Assembly (NCBI GenBank): GCA_964345345.1
Contig: CAYFRH010000002.1
Location: forward strand, 5,758-69,757
DNA length: 64,000 nt
DNA from: an uncultured Puniceicoccaceae bacterium
GTDB taxonomy: Bacteria; Verrucomicrobiota; Verrucomicrobiia; Opitutales; Oceanipulchritudinaceae
Reading direction: 5' to 3'
How positions within the stretch are numbered: position 1 is the first letter of the stretch; the number at the start of each line of letters is the position of its first letter. The notes beneath the pieces are model-generated. The model saw only the letters and a program-made list of their open reading frames with translations. It searched no databases and had not been told where the DNA came from. Both the position numbers and the translations under genes were made by a program. Positions 28,612-45,318 of the stretch are shown here, in pieces.

Positions 28612-29154
28612 TCAGGAGGTCCCGCGCTCGTCCTCGTCCGCAAAGGACTCCTGGGCGGAGCTTTGGGACTCCGGGGTGCGCTCATGGTCTTCTTCGAAAG
28701 GATCTTCGTCCCGGGCGAGGTTGCCGGTGGGAATGGCGGCCATGGAGTCGCCGACGATGCGCGTCACCTTGATATGGATGGGATCGATTGGGGCCATTCC
28801 GAATTGTTCGGAGACAGTGGACCGAATCCGCTGCTTGATCTGGTTTTCGACCTCGCGAAGGGGGTGGCTGGCGCGCAGGTGCAAAGCCACCCGTACGCCG
28901 ATGCCGCGCCGGTGGCGGAAGTGGCGGCAGCTTGCCCGCTCGACACCTTCAACGCTGTTAACAGCGTTGCGCATGACGGTGCGCAGGGTCTTGGGGGCGA
29001 CCTCAATGGCCCCGTCCCGAGACTCGAAGGCGGGGATGCAACTCCGCCAGCGCCTTAAAAAGACAAGGACAAGAAGAAGAAGGAGAAGGAGGGCGGCGCC
29101 AACCGCTCCATAGAGGTAGGGAGGCGTGGTCAGGTAATGGAGGGAGGCGGGCAC
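28612..29154 (-). CDS. AmaP-like membrane-anchored Asp23-family protein
   Basis: N-terminal TM helix, then G.IEVAPKTLR.V...AV..VEGV and I.IKVTRI, matching the Asp23 fold pattern. Confidence 0.6.
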   Translation of the reverse strand: MPASLHYLTTPPYLYGAVGAALLLLLLLVLVFLRRWRSCIPAFESRDGAIEVAPKTLRTVMRNAVNSVEGVERASCRHFRHRRGIGVRVALHLRASHPLREVENQIKQRIRSTVSEQFGMAPIDPIHIKVTRIVGDSMAAIPTGNLARDEDPFEEDHERTPESQSSAQESFADEDERGTS

Positions 29155-29172
29155 GACAGGAAAGGAAAGGAG

Positions 29173-29592
29173 TTACTCGTTGGATGGCGGGGCCTCGCGG
29201 TGTACCCCGTCGACGATGACATCGACCCGGGCCACTTCCTTGTTGGTCATGTTTTCGACCTGTTCGCGAACGGCCACCTGGACGTTCTGGGCTACTTTGG
29301 CCAGCTGCACACCGAAGGTAAGAATCAACTTCACATTGACGCGATAGGCTCCTTCCCCGGTTTCGGAGATCGTCACGGCGGAGCCGCTTTCGCGGCGGGA
29401 GCCGAACAGCCCGGCGAGATCGTCCTTAATGCCGCCACTGGCAAGACCGGCCACGCCGGTTACTTCCCTTGCAGCCATGGCGACGATATTGGCGACGACT
29501 TCGTTGTTGATGCTGATACTGCCAAAGCCGGAGTCTTCGGCGAGGGTTTCGAGCTGATCGGACGGTTCCTGAGAATAAGGTTGTTCAGCCAT
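29173..29592 (-). CDS. Asp23/Gls24 (YqhY-like) protein
   Basis: GSISINNEVVANIVAMAAREVTGV, VAQNVQVAVREQVENMT...V.RVDVIVDGV. Confidence 0.9.
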   Translation of the reverse strand: MAEQPYSQEPSDQLETLAEDSGFGSISINNEVVANIVAMAAREVTGVAGLASGGIKDDLAGLFGSRRESGSAVTISETGEGAYRVNVKLILTFGVQLAKVAQNVQVAVREQVENMTNKEVARVDVIVDGVHREAPPSNE

Positions 29593-29616
29593 AGCGGAAG
29601 AGAAGTGAATTTTGTA

Positions 29617-30996
29617 TTACTGATGGGCGGGCGGTTCGAAAAGACTTTTTGGTGTCCGCTGGAGAAATTCTTCGATGAAGCGGGTGGTGAAGCGGCCCCG
29701 CACGAATTCGGGATCGTTGATGATGGAGCGGGTGAAGGAGATATTGGTAAAAATACCGCGGATGAGGTATTCGCGCAGGGCGCGGTCCATACGGGCGATG
29801 GCGATCTCCCTGTTCGTCCCCACGCTAATAACCTTCGCGATCATACTGTCGTAAAATTTGGGCACGGTGTACCCCCCATACACATGGCTGTCGACGCGGA
29901 TACCATGTCCGCCAGGAGGAAAGTAGAGGCTGATCTCCCCTGGCGAGGGAGCGAAATTCATGCCCGGATTTTCCGCGCAGACGCGGCATTCGATGGCGTG
30001 TTTGCGGATCTCCACCTCATCCTGTCTTAAGGAAAGGGGGGCGCCGTCGGCGATGCGGAATTGTTCCTTGATCAAGTCGATGCCGGTGACTTCCTCGGTG
30101 ACGGGATGCTCCACCTGAATCCGCGTGTTCATTTCGATGAAAAAGAAATTCCGGTGGCGATCGACGAGAAACTCAACCGTCCCGGCATTGCGGTACTGGC
30201 AGGCTTCGGCGGCCTTTATGGCGGCCCGACCCATTTCCTCGCGCAATTCCGGGGTCATGAAGGGCGAAGGCGATTCTTCGATGACCTTCTGGTGCCGGCG
30301 CTGGATAGAACAGTCGCGTTCGCCGAGATGGATGATTCTGCCTTCCTCGTCGGCGAGGACCTGGAATTCGATGTGTCGCGGTTCCTCGATAAATTTCTCG
30401 ATATAGACGCTGGCGTTGCCAAAGGCTTTCTCGGCCTCGGCGGCAGCGGCCGCGAATTCCTTTTGCAGGGACATCGGATTATGGGCTAAACGCATGCCGC
30501 GACCCCCGCCGCCGGCGACGGCTTTCACGATGACGGGAAAACCGATTTCCTCGGCGATCCGATTGGCTTCCTGCGGATCGGCGACTGCTCCCTTGCTCCC
30601 CGGAACGGTGGGAACGCCCACCGCGCGCACCGTCTCGCGGGCGGTGGCTTTATCGCCCATACGCCGGATGCTTTCGGAGCGCGGGCCGATAAACTTGATC
30701 CGGCATTCCTCGCATTGCTCGGCGAAGGCAGGATCCTCGGAAAGAAATCCATAGCCCGGGTGGATGGCGTCCACATCCGCGATCTCCGCTGCGGCGATAA
30801 TGCGCTCGGCGCGGAGGTAGGATTCCGAACTGGGCGCCGGGCCGATGCAGATGGCGGCATCGGCAAGCTGGACATGGAGCGACTGTTCATCGGCTTCGGA
30901 GTAGACGGCAATGGTTTCGATGCCGAGTTCCCGGCAGGCGCGGATGATGCGCAGGGCAATTTCGCCTCGGTTGGCGATCAGGATCTTTTTAAACAT
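29617..30996 (-). CDS. accC: Acetyl-CoA carboxylase biotin carboxylase subunit
   Basis: [70 protein letters not shown]. Confidence 0.97.
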
Positions 30997-31013
30997 GCTA
31001 AAATCCGCGGAAC

Positions 31014-31448
31014 TTAGCGGAGGCGGAAGAGCGGCTGGCCGTACTCGACGTTATCGCCGTTTTGGGCTAGAATCTCGGTTATCGTCCCTTTCTGTTCGGC
31101 CTTAATCTCGTTCATTACTTTCATTGCTTCGAGGATACAGACGACGGTGTCTTCGGTGACCACGTCGCCCATCTTCACAAACGGGGGACTTTCCGGGGAG
31201 GGCGCAGCGTAAAAGGTCCCCACCATGGGGGACGTGACGAGCGTGCCCTCGTCGGCAGGCCCGGTTTCAACGGGGGGGCTGGTTTCGGTCGCGGGAACGG
31301 CTGGGGGGGGAGCGGGGTCAACTGCCGTGGGCGGCGCAGTGGGCTGGCGGTGCAGGGATAGCTTGAGGTCCCCCTCCTCAAGATGGAACTCCGTCAATTC
31401 CGCGCGTTTCATGATGTCCGCGATTTGCCTGATCTTCTTAATATCCAA
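31014..31448 (-). CDS. accB: Acetyl-CoA carboxylase biotin carboxyl carrier protein
   Basis: [27 protein letters not shown] (biotinyl Lys), VEYGQPLF. Confidence 0.96.
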
Positions 31449-31544
31449 AACGTTTTTCCTCCTTTATTTCCATGAATTTGAAGAATTGTGGAGAGAGAGC
31501 GAGCTGGTCGGCAATGGAAAAGCGAGGCGGTCCGTCATGCTCCT

Positions 31545-34295
31545 TCAAGGCTGGAAAATGCGACTCCGCAGCCATTGCAGGGGTTCCAGCTGCAGGCTCC
31601 ACCTGGGGTCGCGGAGCGGACCGGTGACTTCAAAGGCGATGCGGTTACTGACGGGGGCGAGGAGGCGCTGTACCAAGCCTTCGAAAAGAAGGGCCGAACC
31701 GGACAGGGCGAGGGTGCGCGAGGCAAGGTCGGCATCGCCGTCGATGCGAAGGTGTAGAACGGGGCCGCTGATGACAAAGTGGTCGAAATGAAGGAATGGG
31801 TCCTGCCAGCGCCAATCGACGGAGGCGGTCTCGAGGTCGAGGCTGCTGAAACCGAGACCGAGATCCTGCAGCAAGGCGGAGAAGCCGCCGAAGAGATGGA
31901 CGCTGCCGAGGCGGGCCTCGCGGATGTGCAGCCAGCCTTGACCGCTCCCCACATCGCTGTCGGGTAGCTCAAGGCGAAAGCCGGTGTCGAGGCGTCCGCC
32001 GCTTCCTTCTTTTAGCAAGGAGTCTGCCGCGAGGTTCCAATCGGGAAAGAGATTGTCCAGTTGGTCGAGAGTGTCTCCGAGGTCGGCGTCCAGCAACTGC
32101 AGGTCCAACCGGCGCGGTCGCAAGGTTCCGGAATCCGCCTTTCGCGTGAAGGCGAGATCGCCCGTGAGAACGCCCTCGGAAAAGCGCGCGGAGAGGTTTT
32201 CAAAAAGAATTCGTGAGCCCTCGACGCGGGCCTTGAAGGTGGTATGAGAGAAGGAAAGGTCGGCAATTTGAAAGGAACCGCGGGGCGCGTCGACTCGGAG
32301 GCGCAGCTTTGGGCCGGGTTTTTCCTTCCGCTGCCCGTTTTTGGACGGATGCCACAACCAGCCTTCCATCTCCAGTAGCGGAGGCTGCGTAAAGCGGCAG
32401 ACGGAAAGGGCGGAAATCCCGCTGAGGCGGATGGCCCGCGGGAAAGCGACGTTGCTGCGGAGCCGGATCCGCATGGGTCGAAGTCGGTCGGACGGATTAT
32501 GGATGCGCCACGCCAGAGCACCGGTGATCTTGCCATCGGAAAATGTTGCTTCGAGGTAATGAAGGAAGGTCCAATTCTCGTTGCTGCGAATCTCGAGCTG
32601 CAAATCCGGAACGGGGACGTTGTTGTAGCGTGCTTCCTCCGCCTTGACATCGACGCTGGAACGGATGGATCGGGACTTGCGGGCATTTCCCCAGACCATG
32701 ACCCGGGCGTCCGCAGGGCGCGTCGGGCGGATGGAGGTAAAAATATCCTGCCACCACTTTCCGAGGATCGGGTCGAGGCTGGCTGGAAGAAGGCGGCCTT
32801 TCGCTTTCAGAACAAAGCGGGAATCCCGCAGGTTGTGCTGGTAGGAACCGGAGGCCGTTTCGCCGGAGGGACGGGACATCCGGACGGAGGGCAGGCGCAG
32901 GTTGTCAGTGGACAGGTCGAGGCGCGCTGTGAAATCGGTGCGGGCAAAAGAGGGGGAACGCAGGCCATCGATCCGGCAGCCTCCCTGAAGACGGGGGGCG
33001 GAAGGAAAGAAGGAGCCGGAAAAGGAGAGGCCATCGGCGGTGCCTTGATGGAGGAACTCCGGCAGGAAAGGAAGTCCGAGAAGGTAGCGGGGCCGGTCCC
33101 CGGATACCTCAAACCGCAGGGCCAGCTTTTGGGGAAGGAGGAAGTCGGTCAGGGGTCCACTCCCGTAAAGTGCCCTGGCGAGGTCTTCCAGGTCGGGTCG
33201 CCATGAGGTGGCAAGGAATAGGCCGTGTCCGCTTCCGCGGAGGCGAAGGAAAGGCGCTTTGTCGGCGAGGTTCCATTCCATCCCGACGGCAAGGGACCTC
33301 TCCTTTTCCTCTCCCGTCTCCGTGCCGACCCACTGCGAGTGAATCCGCTCCGGTCCCGAGACGTTCTCGGAAAGGGAAGTGGCCGGCCCTTCGCTGGAAA
33401 CCTGGAAACGGGCGGTGCGGGGAAGGGGAAGAAAGTTCGCCCACCCCGGCAAAGAGAGGGTCAAATCGGCCTCTCCCCGGGCCCGGAGATCGGTGAGGGT
33501 GATTTCTTCCTCCTTTATCCGGACGCGGCCCTGCAAATCCATCTCGCGCAGGCGGCCGCCGGGAACAGGAAGGGAACGCAGGAAGGAGCGGATGGCAAAG
33601 GATTGCCCGCCTTCCACGGGCGAATCCCATTTGACCCGGAGGAGGGCGGTATCCTCAAGGGGTAGTTGGTAAATTGATTGCCAGAAAGTCCCGACTATAC
33701 GGGGCAGGCTTTCGGAGAACGTCTCCGGACTTTCCCCGCGACTCTTTGGGAGTTTTCCTTCCCCGTCGAGAGAGAGGACCAGCTCGTCCACCTCCGCATA
33801 CAGGTTTTCCACGCGCAGTTTTCCGCCTCCGGAGAAACCGAGGCGGGCATGATGGAGGCGGAGCGGTTCCTCCGCGACTCCCGAGGGAGAGAGGGCGGGT
33901 GGGGGAAACAAGCGCCCGTCAAAGAAGGTAAGGGAACGCAGGGCCGGGCTTCCAGGGAGGAGAAACCGCGGCAGGGAAAAGTCGAGATGGAAGGCCGCCG
34001 CTTCGAAAACCGCATCGTCGCTTCCCCGCTGCTGGACTTTCAGATCCTTGAAGAGGAGACCGCCGCGGAGGTCGACCTGGGCGGCGGACCAGGAGAGCTG
34101 AAAATCCTCCGGGGCGACCTGCTGCACGGCGGCCCGCAGGACCTCCTCGGGAAGAGGAACGACGCGTTGCAACTGGTTGAGGACAGTCAATCCCACCTGC
34201 AGGCAGGCAAGGGCCGCGAGGAGCAGGTTCAGGCTTTGGCAGCCCCCGCGGGCACACTGCCGCAGCAATCCTGTCATGGAGCTGGTGAAGGACAT
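31545..34295 (-). CDS. Large AsmA-like (YhdP/TamB superfamily) envelope protein
   Basis: About 916 aa, one N-terminal hydrophobic anchor, beta-strand-rich alternating pattern, C-terminal ..ISGPVLHLRIDGDADL...L.....FEVTGPLRDPRW resembling AsmA-like C-termini. Start placed at ATG 34295 because the upstream part overlaps the DUF4340 gene. Confidence 0.6.
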   Translation of the reverse strand: MSFTSSMTGLLRQCARGGCQSLNLLLAALACLQVGLTVLNQLQRVVPLPEEVLRAAVQQVAPEDFQLSWSAAQVDLRGGLLFKDLKVQQRGSDDAVFEAAAFHLDFSLPRFLLPGSPALRSLTFFDGRLFPPPALSPSGVAEEPLRLHHARLGFSGGGKLRVENLYAEVDELVLSLDGEGKLPKSRGESPETFSESLPRIVGTFWQSIYQLPLEDTALLRVKWDSPVEGGQSFAIRSFLRSLPVPGGRLREMDLQGRVRIKEEEITLTDLRARGEADLTLSLPGWANFLPLPRTARFQVSSEGPATSLSENVSGPERIHSQWVGTETGEEKERSLAVGMEWNLADKAPFLRLRGSGHGLFLATSWRPDLEDLARALYGSGPLTDFLLPQKLALRFEVSGDRPRYLLGLPFLPEFLHQGTADGLSFSGSFFPSAPRLQGGCRIDGLRSPSFARTDFTARLDLSTDNLRLPSVRMSRPSGETASGSYQHNLRDSRFVLKAKGRLLPASLDPILGKWWQDIFTSIRPTRPADARVMVWGNARKSRSIRSSVDVKAEEARYNNVPVPDLQLEIRSNENWTFLHYLEATFSDGKITGALAWRIHNPSDRLRPMRIRLRSNVAFPRAIRLSGISALSVCRFTQPPLLEMEGWLWHPSKNGQRKEKPGPKLRLRVDAPRGSFQIADLSFSHTTFKARVEGSRILFENLSARFSEGVLTGDLAFTRKADSGTLRPRRLDLQLLDADLGDTLDQLDNLFPDWNLAADSLLKEGSGGRLDTGFRLELPDSDVGSGQGWLHIREARLGSVHLFGGFSALLQDLGLGFSSLDLETASVDWRWQDPFLHFDHFVISGPVLHLRIDGDADLASRTLALSGSALLFEGLVQRLLAPVSNRIAFEVTGPLRDPRWSLQLEPLQWLRSRIFQP

Positions 34296-34305
34296 TGCGG
34301 GCTTC

Positions 34306-36168
34306 TCAGCCGTTCTCGACCGGTGCCTCGGGCTCCCCGGTCTCCGGTGCTTCGGGCTCCCCGGTCTCCGGCGGGGAGGGCGGTTCCTTCGGAAACGCGG
34401 CCAACACGGGGGAAAGGGCGCGGAAGATGGCCGGGGGAAGCAAGCCGACCTCGCCGGTGCCGGGATCGGCAATGTACTGCCGGCCACCGCCGACCGGTTC
34501 GGTCAGAAGAAAGGAGACCGGTTCCGGCGCATCCTCCGCAGATCCATTGGCAAGGTGCAGAACGAGTCGATACTTCCATTCGAGTCGGCGGTCTTCGTCG
34601 AGTTGGAGCGGCTTGGAAAAGGAGAGCGGAACATGCCTTTCCACTGTCAGGTCCCGAGTCCATTCCCGGATTTTGCCGCGCAGGGAGTCCTCTTCCGAAG
34701 TTTTCTTGAGAAGGTCCAGACCGGCGGCCATGTGGATCATCTCGACCCTCTGGACGGATTTTCCGGAGGAAGGGGTCCAGAAGGTTCGGTCGCGATAATA
34801 ATACGGATCCAGCGGAAAGCTTGCCAAGACCTGCGGCCGGACCAGGAAGACCGAACCGGTGGTGTTGGTGGTCGCGTACAGAAGGGTCTCCTCCGGATGA
34901 ACTCCACCCACGAGAAGGGTGACATCTGCCTTTTCCGGCTGCCGAAGGAGAATGCGACGTTGCGGATCCTCGAGTCCGAAGCGGCGGAGATCGTCTTCGG
35001 AAGGGGCGTCGGTGACGAAGCGGGAGGCTTCCGCGCGTCCCAGCAAAGTGTTGATTTCCGCTACAATCTGCTCTTCCGCCGGCAATGTTCGCAGATTGCC
35101 CTCCTCCGTCGTGTACAAGACCTGCCAGTCGCCGCTCTCCAGTTTTTGCAAGGTGAGGGACCGCTCGTTCATCCGCACTTCAAGGCTGTTCCACTGGTCC
35201 TGCAGGGAGAGAAGGAACCTCTTTTCGCGCAATTCCTCCTGTGCCCGCCGAAGCCTTTCGACAAGGGACTCCGGGATCGCGAAAGCGGCCGGGTAACTCT
35301 CCCGGGAGGCGAAAAAGCGTCCATCCTCCTCGTCGGTTCCGGAAAGGACCAAAGTTTCGCGCCGGTTCAACCCTTCAAGCGTGAGACGAAGAGTCCCTCC
35401 GGAGAAGCCGACGGGAAGCTCCTTCGGATCGAGCAACTCACCGGTTTCGAGGCTCTGCCACTGGTCGAGCAGGGTGCGCACGCGTTCGTCGTCTGCCTCC
35501 GTTTCCATCGGGGAGACAAATTTCCATCCCTCCTCATCCCGGACGAGGCGGATCCGCACGTTTCCCGTTACCTGATCCTGAATCTGGAGCGCTTTTGTCT
35601 CCTCGAAGGAGAGCGAAAAGACGCGCGGATCATAGAAGGCATTGGGGTCACGGCGCAGGGCATCGAGAAGATCCCGGGGGACCACCTGCACCTTGCTCTT
35701 ATCGTGCGAGAGGACATACAACCGGGCTCCAATCTCTGTGGGGTCCCCGAGGCGAAGAACCTTTTCCTCTCCTCCGCCGCGGAGGCGCAGGGTCAGGGCT
35801 GGGTCGCCCAATCCGTAAGCGGAAAGATCGCGGCCCGCTTCCTCGAGGGAGGCGACCGAAAAGCGGGATTCCCAGCGCAGGCGCTTGAGCTGGAAAAGCA
35901 ACTGCTCGACGGCATACCGGTTGGCGGGCCAGCGTAACGGCTCCACGACTTCCCAATCCGCTTCATTCCTGCGCAGCTCCCAATCATTCTTCAAGGCATT
36001 GCTCTCGACGGTGAAATGGTCGATGCGCGCGGAAAATGAAGGGGAAAGGACAAGGCGGGCTTCGTCCCCGAGCTGGTCGCGGGTGCTGCCGGCTTTGTTA
36101 AGGTAAAGAAGGTAGCCGAAAAGCGCCAGGTTCAGGGCGATAAGAAGGAAAGTGAGCTTGAAACGCAT
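34306..36168 (-). CDS. DUF4340 domain protein (three repeats)
   Basis: N-terminal TM/signal, repeated W...P....A....V..LL and YGL.DP / FGLEDP motifs. Confidence 0.75.
   Translation of the reverse strand: MRFKLTFLLIALNLALFGYLLYLNKAGSTRDQLGDEARLVLSPSFSARIDHFTVESNALKNDWELRRNEADWEVVEPLRWPANRYAVEQLLFQLKRLRWESRFSVASLEEAGRDLSAYGLGDPALTLRLRGGGEEKVLRLGDPTEIGARLYVLSHDKSKVQVVPRDLLDALRRDPNAFYDPRVFSLSFEETKALQIQDQVTGNVRIRLVRDEEGWKFVSPMETEADDERVRTLLDQWQSLETGELLDPKELPVGFSGGTLRLTLEGLNRRETLVLSGTDEEDGRFFASRESYPAAFAIPESLVERLRRAQEELREKRFLLSLQDQWNSLEVRMNERSLTLQKLESGDWQVLYTTEEGNLRTLPAEEQIVAEINTLLGRAEASRFVTDAPSEDDLRRFGLEDPQRRILLRQPEKADVTLLVGGVHPEETLLYATTNTTGSVFLVRPQVLASFPLDPYYYRDRTFWTPSSGKSVQRVEMIHMAAGLDLLKKTSEEDSLRGKIREWTRDLTVERHVPLSFSKPLQLDEDRRLEWKYRLVLHLANGSAEDAPEPVSFLLTEPVGGGRQYIADPGTGEVGLLPPAIFRALSPVLAAFPKEPPSPPETGEPEAPETGEPEAPVENG
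34321..34368. repeat. 24-bp tandem repeat encoding ETGEPEAP x2
   Basis: CGGTGC(C/T)TCGGGCTCCCCGGTCTC twice with one mismatch. Confidence 0.9.
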
Positions 36169-36177
36169 GAAAAAAGG

Positions 36178-37656
36178 TCAGGTCCGTCGAAGGAGAAAGA
36201 CGAAGAAACCGAGCAGGGCGACCGTGCCCGGCACAATGAGAAAAAGCAGGCCGATCCTTTCCAGCTCTCTGCGGCTGGCGGTAAGGCGGTAGGTTTCCAC
36301 CGGACGCGGGGGAATGGCGAGGGTGCGGTCCCGCTCGAGGAGCCAGTTCAGGCTGTTGAAAAACAGGGCCTTGTTTCCGAGCGAACTGACCTGTCGGTTC
36401 GAGAAGATGCGGGGGCTGCCAATGACGACGACCCGTCCGCCCGGAACCTTGATCCCGAGCCGGGTCGAGGCCCCCCTGGCGGCGGCGGCGGCAATGCTGA
36501 CGGGACCGGCGAGATCCACGTCCGGATCGAAGGCCGTTGCTGTTCCGGGGGTGTCCACAGGGGCACTCCAGCTTTCCCCCGATGTGGCAAACAGGGCACT
36601 GACGGAAAGCCGTTCATCGGGCGGCTGCGGTTCCACCGGAAGGACCGGCCGGGCCGCCTCCGCACGAAGAAAGGTTTGCTTTTCGATCAGTGGAGTCATG
36701 ACCGGATGCTCGGCGAAATTCCGGAAAAGAAGGCCGCCGCTGGACTCGCGGAAACGAGGATCGGGTTCGACGACGCGGTGATTTGGCAGGTACATGCCCC
36801 ATTCCGCAAAGAGAGAACGCATCCCTGTTTCCACTCCGGGGCGAAGCCAGAGCAGAAGTCGTCCTTCTCTCCGCAGGAGCCAGCGCCGCATCTTTTCCAC
36901 CTCCTCGATGGTGAGAGGGCCCTTCGGATCGGCAACGAGGAGGGCTGTGGCGTCTTCCGGAACTTCCGGAACCTTCGTCAGGTCGAGCTGGCGAAGAGTA
37001 TAGTTGCGTTCCCGGAGACGGCTTGTCAGCTCGGAAAGACCCTCCTGCGGATGGCTGTCGGAAGGATCCATTTCATCGTGGCCGCGCAGGAAATAGAGGG
37101 TCGAGGTCACTTCCTGGGTGACTTCCATGATAGCGGAGGTAAGGGCCGCTTCCCCTGTGTAGGCGACGGGCTCCATGTCCTCGAAGCGGATGAGATCGTC
37201 GCCTTCGAGCAGACGTCGGCGCTCCCCGGAGAGAATGAGAACGGAATTGACCTGCTCCAGCCCGTAACTGCGGGAGAGTTCATCGGCGCGTGCGAGGTCC
37301 TTGTAAATATCGACGGTTTCCACGCGCAAGCGCGCCTTCCCGCCGTCGCTGCGACTGTTGTACTGGTACTCGTCGAGGAGTTGTTCGACGTAGCGGAAGA
37401 GCAGGCGCTCCTCCTGCCGGGGAGAACGCGGGGGAATGGTGACGATAATCCGAACTTCCTGATCGAGGTCCCGCAGGTAGGCAAGGGTTTCCGGCGAGAG
37501 GCTGTAACGTCCGTCCTGGGTAAGGTCGTATCGTTGATAATGCTGGACGGACAGGAAGTTCAGCCCGCCAATAAAGAGCAGGATCAGGACAATCCGCAGC
37601 CAGCGGTGCAGCCGGAGCAGGCGGTTAGCGACTTGAAAGGATTCCCAGCGGGTCAT
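36178..37656 (-). CDS. GldG-family ABC transporter auxiliary protein
   Basis: RYDLTQDGRYSLSPET..YL..L...V.I, LYFLRGHDE, VPEDA..LLVADPK.PL, GRVVVIG....FSN......GN..LF.NSLNWL, C-terminal TM. Confidence 0.82.
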   Translation of the reverse strand: MTRWESFQVANRLLRLHRWLRIVLILLFIGGLNFLSVQHYQRYDLTQDGRYSLSPETLAYLRDLDQEVRIIVTIPPRSPRQEERLLFRYVEQLLDEYQYNSRSDGGKARLRVETVDIYKDLARADELSRSYGLEQVNSVLILSGERRRLLEGDDLIRFEDMEPVAYTGEAALTSAIMEVTQEVTSTLYFLRGHDEMDPSDSHPQEGLSELTSRLRERNYTLRQLDLTKVPEVPEDATALLVADPKGPLTIEEVEKMRRWLLRREGRLLLWLRPGVETGMRSLFAEWGMYLPNHRVVEPDPRFRESSGGLLFRNFAEHPVMTPLIEKQTFLRAEAARPVLPVEPQPPDERLSVSALFATSGESWSAPVDTPGTATAFDPDVDLAGPVSIAAAAARGASTRLGIKVPGGRVVVIGSPRIFSNRQVSSLGNKALFFNSLNWLLERDRTLAIPPRPVETYRLTASRRELERIGLLFLIVPGTVALLGFFVFLLRRT

Positions 37657-37665
37657 GCGGAGCGT

Positions 37666-38430
37666 TCAGCGTTTCGATTCCAGAACGAGGGTGGCGGTGC
37701 CGAGGACAGCCACGCTTCCGGAGAGGTAGTACGCAAAGGGCCGCGTATCGAGACGGCCTTCGCTGAAATCCTCGAAGTGGCCGAAAACCTGCACATAGGC
37801 GAGAAAATCCTGTGGCAGAAAGGGAAATTGCCCCGTATCCTGTTGCAGAAAGCGCAGGGCGGCAAAGCCCATAATGAGCATAAAGAGGATGCTGAAGGAA
37901 AGCATTCCGGCGACGAGCTGGCTGCGGGTCAGGCTACTACTGAAAATGCCCACGGCCACAAAAAGAGTCCCTGACAACGCCACGAAAATGTATCCGCCGA
38001 GAAGGGCACCGGCAGCGAAGAGCTTTTCCGTGAAGGCCGGCTGGTCGAGAACGGAGGCGGTCAGGAAAGGATAGGCAAGGGAGAGCAGCCAAACGAGGAG
38101 GTAAAAGACGTAGGCACCGAAAAATTTCGCCAGGACGACCTGGTAGGGATGAACGGGGGCAGTCAGCAGCGTCTCGATCGTCCCCAGGCGGCGTTCCTCC
38201 GCGAAGCTACGCATGGTCAGCATCGGCACAATGAGGAGGACGGGAACCCAGAAGAGGCTGAAGAAAAGGGTTGCCGGCATTTGTTCCTGAGCCTCCGCGC
38301 TCACGGTCAGGAGGGTGAGGAAGAAGAAAAACCCCAGCAGGAGGAGGGCGAGGACCATGGCGAGGTAGGTGCTGGGGGAATGGAAAAGGTTTTTCAATTC
38401 CTGCCGGGTCAACTGGTAAATTCCCCTCAT
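37666..38430 (-). CDS. ABC-2 type permease (GldF-like)
   Basis: QELKNLFHSPSTY, PMLTMRSFAEERRLGTIETLLTAPV...VVLAKF, six TM segments, G.LDTR...YY. Confidence 0.9.
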   Translation of the reverse strand: MRGIYQLTRQELKNLFHSPSTYLAMVLALLLLGFFFFLTLLTVSAEAQEQMPATLFFSLFWVPVLLIVPMLTMRSFAEERRLGTIETLLTAPVHPYQVVLAKFFGAYVFYLLVWLLSLAYPFLTASVLDQPAFTEKLFAAGALLGGYIFVALSGTLFVAVGIFSSSLTRSQLVAGMLSFSILFMLIMGFAALRFLQQDTGQFPFLPQDFLAYVQVFGHFEDFSEGRLDTRPFAYYLSGSVAVLGTATLVLESKR

Positions 38431-39419
38431 TGGATGCCTTCCTCCTTTCGGGCAAGGTCCCAGCTTCGGCGGGTGGCGGTGAGGAAAATTTCCTCGAGAC
38501 TCGGGCTGAGGCGGCGAAAGGCCCGAACGCGGAGAATCCCCCCGGCGAGGAGGGCCTCGAGGACATCCTCACTCCGGCGCCCGTTGTTCCGGTGACGCAA
38601 ATCCACGCGAAAAGCGGAATTCTCCTGCAGTTCCTCGACGGAGCTTTCCCAGCCGGGGCCGAGTTCGTGCAGGCGTTGATCCAGTCTGGCGCGTTCGGCG
38701 ATGATCTCGCAACGGAACCGGGTGCCCGGAATAAACTCCTCGCGAAGTTCATCCGCCGTACCGGAAGCGACCAGTGCCCCGGCGTTGAGGATAAGGACCC
38801 GGTCGCAGGAAATTTCGACCTCGGCGAGAATATGGCTGGAAAAAATGACGGTGGTCTTGCCGCGAAGTTGATCGAGAAGGGAGCGGATGGCGAGAACCTG
38901 GTGCGGATCGAGTCCGATGGTAGGTTCATCGAGAATGGTCACGGGAGGGCATCCGAGGATGGCATCGGCGATGCCCACCCGTTGGCGGAAGCCCTTGGAG
39001 AGCGTGCCGATGATCCGGCGGCGGGTCTTGCGATGCAACTCGCAGACTTCCAGGGCTTTTTCCACTTCCCCGCGGCGTTTTCGCCGCGGAATTCCTTTGA
39101 TACGGGCACGGAAACGAAGGTATTCCTGCACCCGCATGTCCTCCGGCAGGGGATTGTTCTCCGGCATATAGCCGATGAGTCGGCGGACCTCATTTGAACT
39201 CGTGGCGACCGGAAGTCCGCAGACGGAGGCATATCCGGAATTCGCCCGTAGAATCCCTGTCAGGATTCGCAAGGTCGTGCTTTTCCCGGCCCCGTTCGGT
39301 CCGAGAAACCCCACGATTTCCCCTTGTGGAATCGTGAATGATAGGTCGGTGACGGCAGTGTGATTGCCAAACCTTTTGTTGAGATGGCGGGCTTCAATGC
39401 TGATGGCCGGCGGATCCAT
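38427..39419 (-). CDS. ABC transporter ATP-binding protein (GldA-like)
   Basis: GFLGPNGAGKST, GYMPE, LSKGFRQRVG, ILDEPTIGLDP, SSHIL.EV. Confidence 0.95.
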   Translation of the reverse strand: MDPPAISIEARHLNKRFGNHTAVTDLSFTIPQGEIVGFLGPNGAGKSTTLRILTGILRANSGYASVCGLPVATSSNEVRRLIGYMPENNPLPEDMRVQEYLRFRARIKGIPRRKRRGEVEKALEVCELHRKTRRRIIGTLSKGFRQRVGIADAILGCPPVTILDEPTIGLDPHQVLAIRSLLDQLRGKTTVIFSSHILAEVEISCDRVLILNAGALVASGTADELREEFIPGTRFRCEIIAERARLDQRLHELGPGWESSVEELQENSAFRVDLRHRNNGRRSEDVLEALLAGGILRVRAFRRLSPSLEEIFLTATRRSWDLARKEEGIQ

Positions 39420-39613
39420 GGTCGAAAATTGAGACGGCGGGAAAGAACCTCACGTTCGGAAGTTGGGAAGGCCCCAAAGGAAAAGCAAGCGTGCAGGCCG
39501 GGACCATGGAAAGGAGCCCGCGGAAACTCATGTCTGGTTCGATCAGGGAACGACTTCGCCGGCTCCAACAATGACGACTTTCATGTCATTCCGCATGAGC
39601 GAGGGAGCGGGCC

Positions 39614-42061: not shown

Positions 42062-45318
<3,257 letters not shown>

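What the first reader, a model, noticed from the sequence alone, without database searches (positions are those of the whole stretch)
31545..39419. ABC exporter + GldG + DUF4340 + AsmA-like bridge protein directly upstream of accBC: candidate envelope lipid-transport system
Seen: five tightly spaced minus-strand genes (gaps of 10 bp or less, one overlap): ATPase, ABC-2 permease, GldG-like protein, triple DUF4340 protein and a 916-aa AsmA-like protein, followed 96 bp later by accB. Known: gldA/F/G-like plus DUF4340 operons are widespread but their substrate is unknown outside Bacteroidetes gliding, and AsmA-like proteins (YhdP, TamB, YdbH) are proposed inter-membrane phospholipid bridges that normally have no dedicated ATPase. 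Inference: an energised inner-membrane exporter feeding a periplasm-spanning beta-groove, linked to fatty-acid synthesis. I am not aware of this combination being described. The AsmA call rests on size, anchor and C-terminal pattern only.
Basis: partly seen in the sequence, partly recalled or inferred. Interest (0 to 1): 0.65.

Follow-up and report, generated by a model that had tools for sequence, protein, structure and literature searches.

The report
ABC transporter operon with AsmA-like protein
A Verrucomicrobiota genome from a microbial mat keeps an ATP-driven ABC-2 transporter, two anchored periplasmic helper proteins and a distant relative of the AsmA/YhdP "lipid bridge" proteins in one tight five-gene block; the block is conserved across two classes of the phylum, so it is a testable candidate for an energised lipid bridge, but only gene linkage supports that so far.

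Summary
Five minus-strand genes lie at 31545-39419, with junctions of -4, +9, +9 and +10 bp. accB follows after 96 bp.

The products are an ABC ATPase, an ABC-2 permease, a GldG-like protein, a triple-DUF4340 protein and a 916-aa protein with an N-terminal anchor.

The AsmA call is supported at family level:
- 23 of 49 relatives hit Pfam YhdP.
- One relative passes the Pfam AsmA threshold.
- A family profile matches YhdP/AsmA-like proteins at 99.3% probability.
- The AlphaFold2 model (mean pLDDT 77.7) is a transmembrane helix followed by 49 long strands in blocks.

The window protein alone is below every threshold, and I could not inspect the groove in 3D.

Linkage to the ABC module is conserved in 10 Opitutales/Puniceicoccales loci. 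It also holds in 5 of 6 informative distant loci, including a full cassette from class Verrucomicrobiae.

The accBC link holds only in the Opitutales/Puniceicoccales clade. It is interrupted in one locus of that clade and absent from distant loci, so it looks like local synteny.

I found no paper describing this pairing. Earlier notes of this scan report the same operon in at least 43 genomes. Co-transcription, complex formation and substrate are untested.

The parts
38427..39419 (-). ABC ATPase (330 aa), DrrA/GldA-like, with a DrrA1-3_C C-terminal domain. It is the first gene of the cassette.
   Evidence: Pfam ABC_tran E 1e-27 and DrrA1-3_C E 1e-6. NCBIfam GldA 260 bits against a cut-off of 402.6. 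53-83% identical in 10 syntenic loci.
37666..38430 (-). ABC-2 type permease (254 aa, at least five hydrophobic segments), GldF/NosY-like. Its start overlaps the ATPase stop by 4 bp.
   Evidence: Pfam ABC2_membrane_2/3/4. NCBIfam GldF 115.8 bits against a cut-off of 288.5. Hydrophobic windows and the -4 bp junction.
36178..37656 (-). GldG-like accessory protein (492 aa) with N- and C-terminal membrane anchors and a large periplasmic part.
   Evidence: Pfam DUF7088 and ABC_transp_aux. Hydrophobic windows at 18-40 and 465-491. Conserved position in all syntenic loci.
34306..36168 (-). N-terminally anchored protein (620 aa) with three DUF4340 repeats.
   Evidence: Pfam DUF4340 E 3e-43 in 3 stretches. 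AlphaFold2 model with mean pLDDT 83.6, helix 2-37, then repeated beta/alpha units. No significant PDB fold match. Always the gene directly upstream of the AsmA-like gene.
31545..34295 (-). N-terminally anchored, divergent AsmA/YhdP-like protein (916 aa). It is the last gene of the cassette.
   Evidence: Family-level homology: 23 of 49 relatives hit Pfam YhdP, best E 4.5e-10. The family profile retrieves AsmA/YhdP/TamB proteins. Relative P0190 scores 35 bits on Pfam AsmA against a cut-off of 29.8. hhalign gives 99.3% probability, E 4.7e-20. AlphaFold2 model pLDDT 77.7, helix 4-43 plus 49 strands.
31449..31544 (-). 96-bp spacer between the cassette and accB. No terminator-like hairpin was found, and there is a strong AGGAGG before the accB TTG start.
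   Evidence: Sequence read. The terminator and promoter scan found nothing here.
29617..31448 (-). accB (31014-31448) and accC (29617-30996). These are neighbours, not part of the conserved module.
   Evidence: Pfam and NCBIfam BCCP and biotin carboxylase. They follow the cassette only in the Opitutales/Puniceicoccales loci and not in L002, L015, L016, L018 or L019.

Best explanation
The five genes are one functional module of Verrucomicrobiota. An inner-membrane ABC-2 type transporter (ATPase plus permease) works with two membrane-anchored periplasmic accessory proteins (GldG-like and triple-DUF4340). Together they act with a divergent AsmA/YhdP-like repeating-beta-groove protein that is anchored in the inner membrane and reaches toward the outer membrane. 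The likely mechanism is that ATP hydrolysis at the ABC unit extracts or delivers a lipidic cargo (a phospholipid, glycolipid or other acylated molecule), which the DUF4340 and GldG parts pass to the groove of the AsmA-like protein. That would make an energised, directional version of a lipid bridge, analogous in logic to LptB2FGC feeding the Lpt bridge. Shown here: the gene content, the tight spacing, the membrane anchors, the remote AsmA-like homology, and deep conservation of the DUF4340-to-AsmA-like adjacency. Inferred: co-transcription, physical coupling, a lipid cargo, the direction of transport and contact with the outer membrane. The accBC adjacency is lineage-specific synteny and not part of the module.
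For: Junctions of -4, 9, 9 and 10 bp. The same five-gene order occurs in L001 and L003-L011 (Opitutales, Puniceicoccaceae, Oceanipulchritudo and Moanabacter MAGs), while the AsmA-like protein falls to 23-31% identity. A full cassette with different flanks occurs in L016/L017, whose protein cluster is named 'Verrucomicrobiae bacterium'. The DUF4340 gene lies directly upstream of the AsmA-like gene in L002, L015, L018 and L019. The 5' flank varies: gyrA here, trkA-trkH in relatives, DUF2851 in L017. The 3' flank varies too: accB, metH, a secretin, an oxidoreductase, a CHASE sensor. So only the five genes travel together. AsmA-like homology rests. The model shows a transmembrane helix plus 49 strands of about 10-11 residues in blocks separated by helices. 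The strands alternate between hydrophobic and polar positions more than shuffled strands do (mean difference 2.57 against 1.59). From established knowledge, ABC-2 exporters (Wzm/Wzt, TarGH, NodIJ, DrrAB, ABCA/ABCG) typically handle lipid-linked or hydrophobic cargo. A 2023 review states that AsmA-like transport is thought to be diffusive and not ABC-driven, unlike Lpt and Mla (PMC10345924). In a Verrucomicrobium spinosum Tn-seq study, a DUF4340 protein has an essential region (PMC12283558); orthology to this gene was not checked.
Against: Only gene linkage ties the AsmA-like protein to the ABC unit. No RNA data exist for this organism, and no complex model could be run. The window protein itself is below every curated threshold. 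Foldseek gave only low-TM matches (ApoB100 beta-belt, LptD), so the hydrophobic groove is not verified in 3D. The DUF4340 fold matches nothing solved, so no lipid-handling role can be read from it. One family member (P0155, 1103 aa) is not linked to any ABC gene. No outer-membrane partner is encoded nearby. ABC/GldG/DUF4340 modules exist without an AsmA-like gene in other phyla, for example a SAR11-related strain (PMC13712998), so the ABC unit can work without such a protein.
Confidence: 0.45

Rival explanations
1. Co-regulated but mechanistically independent. The AsmA-like protein is a passive, YhdP/YdbH-type phospholipid bridge. The ABC/GldG/DUF4340 unit exports something else, and the genes share an operon only because both serve envelope growth.
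For: Characterised AsmA-like proteins need no ATPase (PMC10345924). ABC/GldG/DUF4340 modules occur without an AsmA-like gene in other phyla (PMC13712998). One family member is unlinked (L012).
Against: The adjacency of 1-10 bp or an overlap is kept down to about 17-22% identity and across two classes, while both flanks change. That is unusual for mere co-regulation.
Confidence: 0.3
2. The module moves a non-phospholipid cargo to the surface, such as a lipoprotein, a glycolipid or polysaccharide precursor, or a surface protein. The AsmA-like protein would act as a GspN-like chaperone or slide.
For: There is a sub-threshold NCBIfam GspN match at residues 767-860 (E 1.9e-6, 27.5 bits against a cut-off of 50). 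GspN is reported to be AsmA-like and to help lipoproteins reach the surface (PMC12439988, listed; I read only the title and abstract). The cassette in L016 lies next to a secretin gene on the opposite strand. GldAFG of Bacteroidota is tied to gliding and surface functions (papers listed).
Against: No type II secretion genes accompany the cassette in the other 14 loci. The GspN match covers only the C-terminal region shared by the whole AsmA-like clan. All Gld equivalog thresholds are missed.
Confidence: 0.15
3. The cassette is functionally coupled to fatty-acid synthesis through accBC: one transcription unit matches lipid supply to lipid export.
For: accB-accC follow the cassette in all 10 Opitutales/Puniceicoccales loci. 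No terminator-like hairpin lies in the 96-bp spacer. Earlier notes of this scan report other lipid genes (ACP, LpxB) flanking the same cassette in gut Opitutales (not tested here).
Against: accBC are absent downstream in L002, L015, L016, L018 and L019. In L010 a xylose-isomerase-like gene sits between the AsmA-like gene and accB. accB has its own strong ribosome-binding site and heads a separate accB-accC-Asp23 block. gyrA synteny is kept in the same loci, which shows that the whole region is simply syntenic in this clade.
Confidence: 0.1

Closest known systems
AsmA-like (repeating beta-groove) proteins of Proteobacteria: YhdP, YdbH, AsmA, TamB
   Same: Single N-terminal inner-membrane anchor. 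Long beta-rich periplasmic part built of strand blocks separated by short helices. Profile-level homology (hhalign 99.3%; Pfam YhdP and AsmA hits in relatives). Shared C-terminal motif, (L/V)TGT..P.W/V, seen in the consensus lines. The size is close to that of YdbH.
   Different: The window protein is below all curated thresholds. It is encoded as the fifth gene of an ABC transporter operon, whereas the characterised members have no ATPase partner. No TamA- or YnbE-type outer-membrane partner gene is adjacent.
Lpt pathway (LptB2FGC ABC transporter feeding the LptC/A/D bridge)
   Same: The same logic: an inner-membrane ABC unit together with membrane-anchored periplasmic proteins that could form a hydrophobic path to the outer membrane.
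   Different: No LptF/G, LptC or OstA domains were found. The ATPase scores 123.8 bits on LptB against a cut-off of 240. The bridge candidate is an AsmA-like protein, not a chain of beta-jellyrolls.
GldA/GldF/GldG ABC transporter of Bacteroidota gliding
   Same: The same three protein families in the same order: ATPase, ABC-2 permease, and a GldG-type protein with two anchors.
   Different: Scores are far below the equivalog cut-offs: 260 against 402.6, 115.8 against 288.5, and 51 against 389.85. The phylum is different, and DUF4340 and AsmA-like genes are attached.
ABC + GldG-like + DUF4340 four-gene modules in other phyla (for example the SAR11-related strain HIMB59)
   Same: The same four families. 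The DUF4340 protein is predicted there to be a transporter subunit (PMC13712998).
   Different: That description does not mention an AsmA-like fifth gene. The fifth gene is the distinctive feature here.

Membership tests
AsmA-like superfamily (Pfam AsmA, YhdP, TamB) | Significant sequence or profile match to an AsmA-like family model | tested here: met
   The window protein alone fails (YhdP 15 bits against a cut-off of 46). At family level, 23 of 49 relatives hit YhdP with best E 4.5e-10. P0190 scores 35 bits on AsmA against a cut-off of 29.8. The family profile retrieves annotated AsmA/YhdP/TamB proteins at E down to 1e-12. hhalign gives 99.3% probability, E 4.7e-20, over 402 columns.
AsmA-like superfamily (Pfam AsmA, YhdP, TamB) | Single N-terminal transmembrane anchor with the rest of the protein in the periplasm | tested here: met
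   Hydrophobic window at residues 20-42 and none elsewhere. AlphaFold2 helix 4-43.
AsmA-like superfamily (Pfam AsmA, YhdP, TamB) | Elongated repeating beta-groove (taco) fold with a hydrophobic interior | tested here: inconclusive
   The model (pLDDT 77.7) has 49 long strands in blocks separated by helices, and the strands are amphipathic. No coordinates were available to inspect the groove. Foldseek against the PDB gave only low-TM hits (ApoB100 beta-belt, LptD) and no AsmA-like chain.
AsmA-like superfamily (Pfam AsmA, YhdP, TamB) | [quoted passage not shown] | not testable with these tools
   This needs cross-linking, lipid transfer assays or cryo-tomography.
GldAFG gliding-motility ABC transporter (Bacteroidota) | Equivalog-level match to the NCBIfam GldA, GldF and GldG models | tested here: not met
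   260.5 against 402.6, 115.8 against 288.5, and 51 against 389.85 bits.
ABC-2 type exporter | ABC_tran ATPase plus an ABC2_membrane-family permease encoded side by side | tested here: met
   All Pfam hits are above their gathering thresholds, and the two genes overlap by 4 bp.
Lpt lipopolysaccharide transport system | LptF/LptG permeases and OstA/LptC-type beta-jellyroll domains | tested here: not met
   No such Pfam domains occur in any of the five proteins. The LptB model is matched below its cut-off (123.8 against 240 bits).
Mla/MCE lipid transport systems | An MCE (MlaD) domain protein with a MlaE-type permease | tested here: not met
   No MCE or MlaE families are among the Pfam hits for the five proteins.

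The most novel reading that the evidence does not exclude
This is a natural case of an AsmA-type bridge-like lipid transfer protein hard-wired to a dedicated ABC-2 motor through GldG-like and DUF4340 adaptors. It would give energy and direction to bulk lipid flow to the outer membrane in Verrucomicrobiota, and would be a third architecture beside Lpt (ABC plus jellyroll bridge) and Mla (ABC plus shuttle).
Probability: 0.3. Interest if true: 0.85.

Novelty: new variant of a known kind. Interest (0 to 1): 0.62.

Why it matters
How AsmA-like bridges are loaded, powered and given direction is an open question in outer-membrane biogenesis. The parallel question is open for the eukaryotic VPS13/ATG2-type bridges. 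A lineage in which such a protein is genetically fused to an ABC motor offers a concrete system to test for energised bridge loading. It could also give a first function to the widespread but uncharacterised GldG-like and DUF4340 accessory proteins. If the rival reading (mere co-regulation) is right, the finding is a useful annotation and nothing more.

Tried and rejected
- **Window protein as a single query.** It gave nothing usable: no PDB sequence hit, only 3 word-index relatives and no genome contigs locus.
- **PDB profile search.** The family profile found no solved relative.
- **Locus scans with broad alignments.** A narrower alignment worked but reached only Opitutales/Puniceicoccales.
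- **Metagenome scan.** A distant subgroup gave one 5'-truncated locus with no context.
- **Foldseek on full-length models.** It was uninformative for both the AsmA-like protein and the DUF4340 protein. I therefore reject any fold claim for DUF4340, including the weak sliding-clamp and RseB resemblances.
- **RNA evidence.** Only DNA runs from a microbial mat hold the sequence.
- **Whole-genome search.** I could not count AsmA-like paralogues in this genome or measure how often the cassette is present or absent across genomes.
- **V. spinosum Tn-seq supplement.** It did not contain the neighbours of the DUF4340 gene, so orthology and the essentiality of the cassette there remain unknown.
- **Promoter and terminator scan.** It gave no more hits than shuffled sequence.
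- **Rejected readings.** I reject a true Gld gliding system, an Lpt or Mla variant, and accBC as part of the module.
Full report
**Observation**

The ORF list and the junction computation confirm the layout on the minus strand.

| Gene | Coordinates | Length |
|---|---|---|
| ATPase | 38427-39419 | 330 aa |
| ABC-2 permease | 37666-38430 | 254 aa |
| GldG-like | 36178-37656 | 492 aa |
| Triple-DUF4340 protein | 34306-36168 | 620 aa |
| Large protein | 31545-34295 | 916 aa |
| accB | 31014-31448 | 144 aa |
| accC | 29617-30996 | 459 aa |

- The junctions are -4, 9, 9, 10, 96 and 17 bp.
The exception is the large protein, which gets only a sub-threshold YhdP match (E 0.008).
- NCBIfam places the first three proteins nearest to GldA, GldF and GldG, but far below the equivalog cut-offs. 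"Gld-like" is therefore a family resemblance and not an identification.
- The ATG at 34295 is the right start for the large protein. The longer GTG ORF would overlap the DUF4340 gene, and M1 is invariant in 21 aligned relatives.
- Hydrophobic windows show one N-terminal anchor on the DUF4340 protein, one on the large protein, and anchors at both ends of the GldG-like protein.

**What the large protein is**

As a single sequence it is nearly orphan. It has no PDB sequence match and three word-index relatives. An exhaustive HMMER search found 466 representative clusters at E up to 0.001, and nearly all of the best 150 listed are about 900 aa long. This is a coherent, fast-evolving family.

Four results tie the family to the AsmA-like superfamily:
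- 23 of 49 members hit Pfam YhdP (best E 4.5e-10), and one hits TamB.
- A profile of the family retrieves proteins that carry the AsmA, YhdP and TamB Pfam domains, at E down to 1e-12 in a database of 5.8 billion sequences.
- One member, P0190, passes the Pfam AsmA gathering threshold in its N-terminal region (35 against 29.8 bits). This member sits in a full cassette.
- hhalign between the family and an alignment of YhdP/AsmA-like proteins gives 99.3% probability, E 4.7e-20, over 402 columns.

The structure evidence is weaker:
- The AlphaFold2 model was built from a 17-sequence alignment and has mean pLDDT 77.7. It shows a helix at 4-43 followed by 49 strands of about 10-11 residues, in blocks separated by short helices.
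- The strands alternate between hydrophobic and polar positions more than shuffled strands do.
- This pattern fits a repeating beta-groove protein, but I had no coordinates.
- Foldseek returned only low-TM matches to other long amphipathic sheets, the ApoB100 belt and LptD. The groove itself is therefore unverified.

**Is the linkage conserved?**

- A 57%-identical relative in a Verrucomicrobia MAG has the same five genes plus accB and accC, with trkH upstream.
- A scan of species-representative genomes gave nine loci, named Puniceicoccaceae, Puniceicoccales, Opitutales, Oceanipulchritudo and Candidatus Moanabacter.
- tblastn with the window proteins shows the identical order in all nine loci. 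In the two most distant, the large protein is only 23-25% identical.
- Across L003-L009, identity to the window falls from about 80% (accC, gyrA) through about 64% (ATPase, permease), 53% (GldG-like) and 42% (DUF4340) to about 30% for the large protein.

The informative cases are distant members from metagenomes:
- L016/L017 has the full five-gene cassette with 1-bp spacing before the large gene. Its flanks are a DUF2851 gene and a convergent secretin. Its protein cluster carries NCBI names from "Verrucomicrobiae bacterium", a different class.
- L015 has GldG-like (cut by the contig end), DUF4340, the large gene, then metH.
- L018 has DUF4340 overlapping the large gene by 4 bp.
- L002 has DUF4340 ending 8 bp upstream of the large gene.
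- L019 has an upstream partial ORF that matches the C-terminal part of the cassette DUF4340 profile at E 2.6e-18.
- L012 (P0155, a 1103-aa outlier) is not linked. Its neighbours are a response regulator and mreB.

Five of the six informative distant loci therefore keep the DUF4340-to-AsmA-like adjacency while both flanks change. That is good evidence for a functional module and not a frozen neighbourhood.

**The accBC link**

- accB-accC follow the cassette only in the Opitutales/Puniceicoccales clade. In most of those loci gyrA also lies upstream at a fixed distance (with trkA-trkH between where I checked, L003), so the whole region is syntenic.
- In L010 a xylose-isomerase-like gene lies between the large gene and accB.
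- None of the distant loci has accBC downstream.
- In the window, accB has its own AGGAGG site after a 96-bp spacer. It heads a block of accB, accC, Asp23 and an anchored DUF6286 protein (agreeing with an earlier first-reader note seen).
- I treat the fatty-acid link as unsupported but not excluded. No terminator is evident in the spacer.

**How it probably works**

- All four non-ATPase proteins are anchored in the inner membrane and have large periplasmic parts.
- From established knowledge, ABC-2 transporters are mostly exporters of lipid-linked or hydrophobic cargo.
- AsmA-like proteins are the proposed phospholipid bridges to the outer membrane. As of a 2023 review, they are thought to work by diffusive flow without an ABC motor, in contrast to Lpt and Mla (PMC10345924).
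- The most economical reading is that the ABC unit, through the GldG-like and DUF4340 adaptors, loads or unloads the groove of the AsmA-like protein. I put this at about 0.45.
- The main rival, at 0.3, is shared regulation of two independent envelope functions.
- A surface-cargo reading (lipoprotein or glycolipid, GspN-like) gets 0.15.
- The DUF4340 model is confident (pLDDT 83.6) but matches no solved fold, so it gives no mechanistic hint.
- Two papers bear on DUF4340. A Tn-seq study of Verrucomicrobium spinosum reports a DUF4340 protein with an essential region (PMC12283558). A SAR11 study predicts a DUF4340 protein to be an ABC transporter subunit (PMC13712998). I could not show orthology to this cassette in either case.

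**Novelty**

- Six full-text searches found no paper that pairs an AsmA-like protein with an ABC/GldG/DUF4340 module. Only five papers mention DUF4340 at all.
- Earlier AI notes of this scan report the same operon in at least 43 genomes, mostly Opitutales, with the same reading. These are not independent evidence, but they show that this window is one more instance.
- I rate it a new variant of a known kind, with moderate to high interest. The rating is limited by the fact that everything beyond gene linkage and remote homology is inference.

**Limits**

- No RNA runs exist.
- No multimer modelling was possible.

Noticed in passing
window 39420-39613, compared with L003 1923-4777: In related Puniceicoccaceae loci, trkA and trkH lie between gyrA and the cassette. 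In this window gyrA is followed directly by the cassette after 194 bp, so the trk pair is missing or has moved.
   Followed up: partly
L010 12627-13619: In Candidatus Moanabacter, a gene for a xylose-isomerase-like TIM-barrel protein (AP_endonuc_2) is inserted between the AsmA-like gene and accB.
   Followed up: partly
L016 8708-10906: In the Verrucomicrobiae-type cassette, a secretin (GspD-like) gene converges on the AsmA-like gene with 0-1 bp between the two stop codons. The AsmA-like protein GspN is linked to type II secretion in the literature.
   Followed up: no
window 28612-31448: accB and accC are followed by an Asp23-family gene (29173-29592) and a gene with a sub-threshold DUF6286 match (28612-29154).
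   Followed up: partly
window 42062-45067: The longest gyrB ORF is 1001 aa, starting from GTG, but the ATPase domain begins only at residue 208. Either the true start lies well downstream or there is an unusual N-terminal extension.
   Followed up: no
L012 10001-13312: A 1103-aa outlier of the same family (P0155) stands alone between a response-regulator gene and mreB, with no ABC/GldG/DUF4340 genes nearby. It may be a paralogue with an independent role.
   Followed up: partly
Literature: PMC12283558: A Tn-seq study of Verrucomicrobium spinosum flags a DUF4340 protein (VSP_RS39600) with an essential region. I could not determine whether it lies in this cassette, because its neighbours are not in the stored supplement.
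   Followed up: partly
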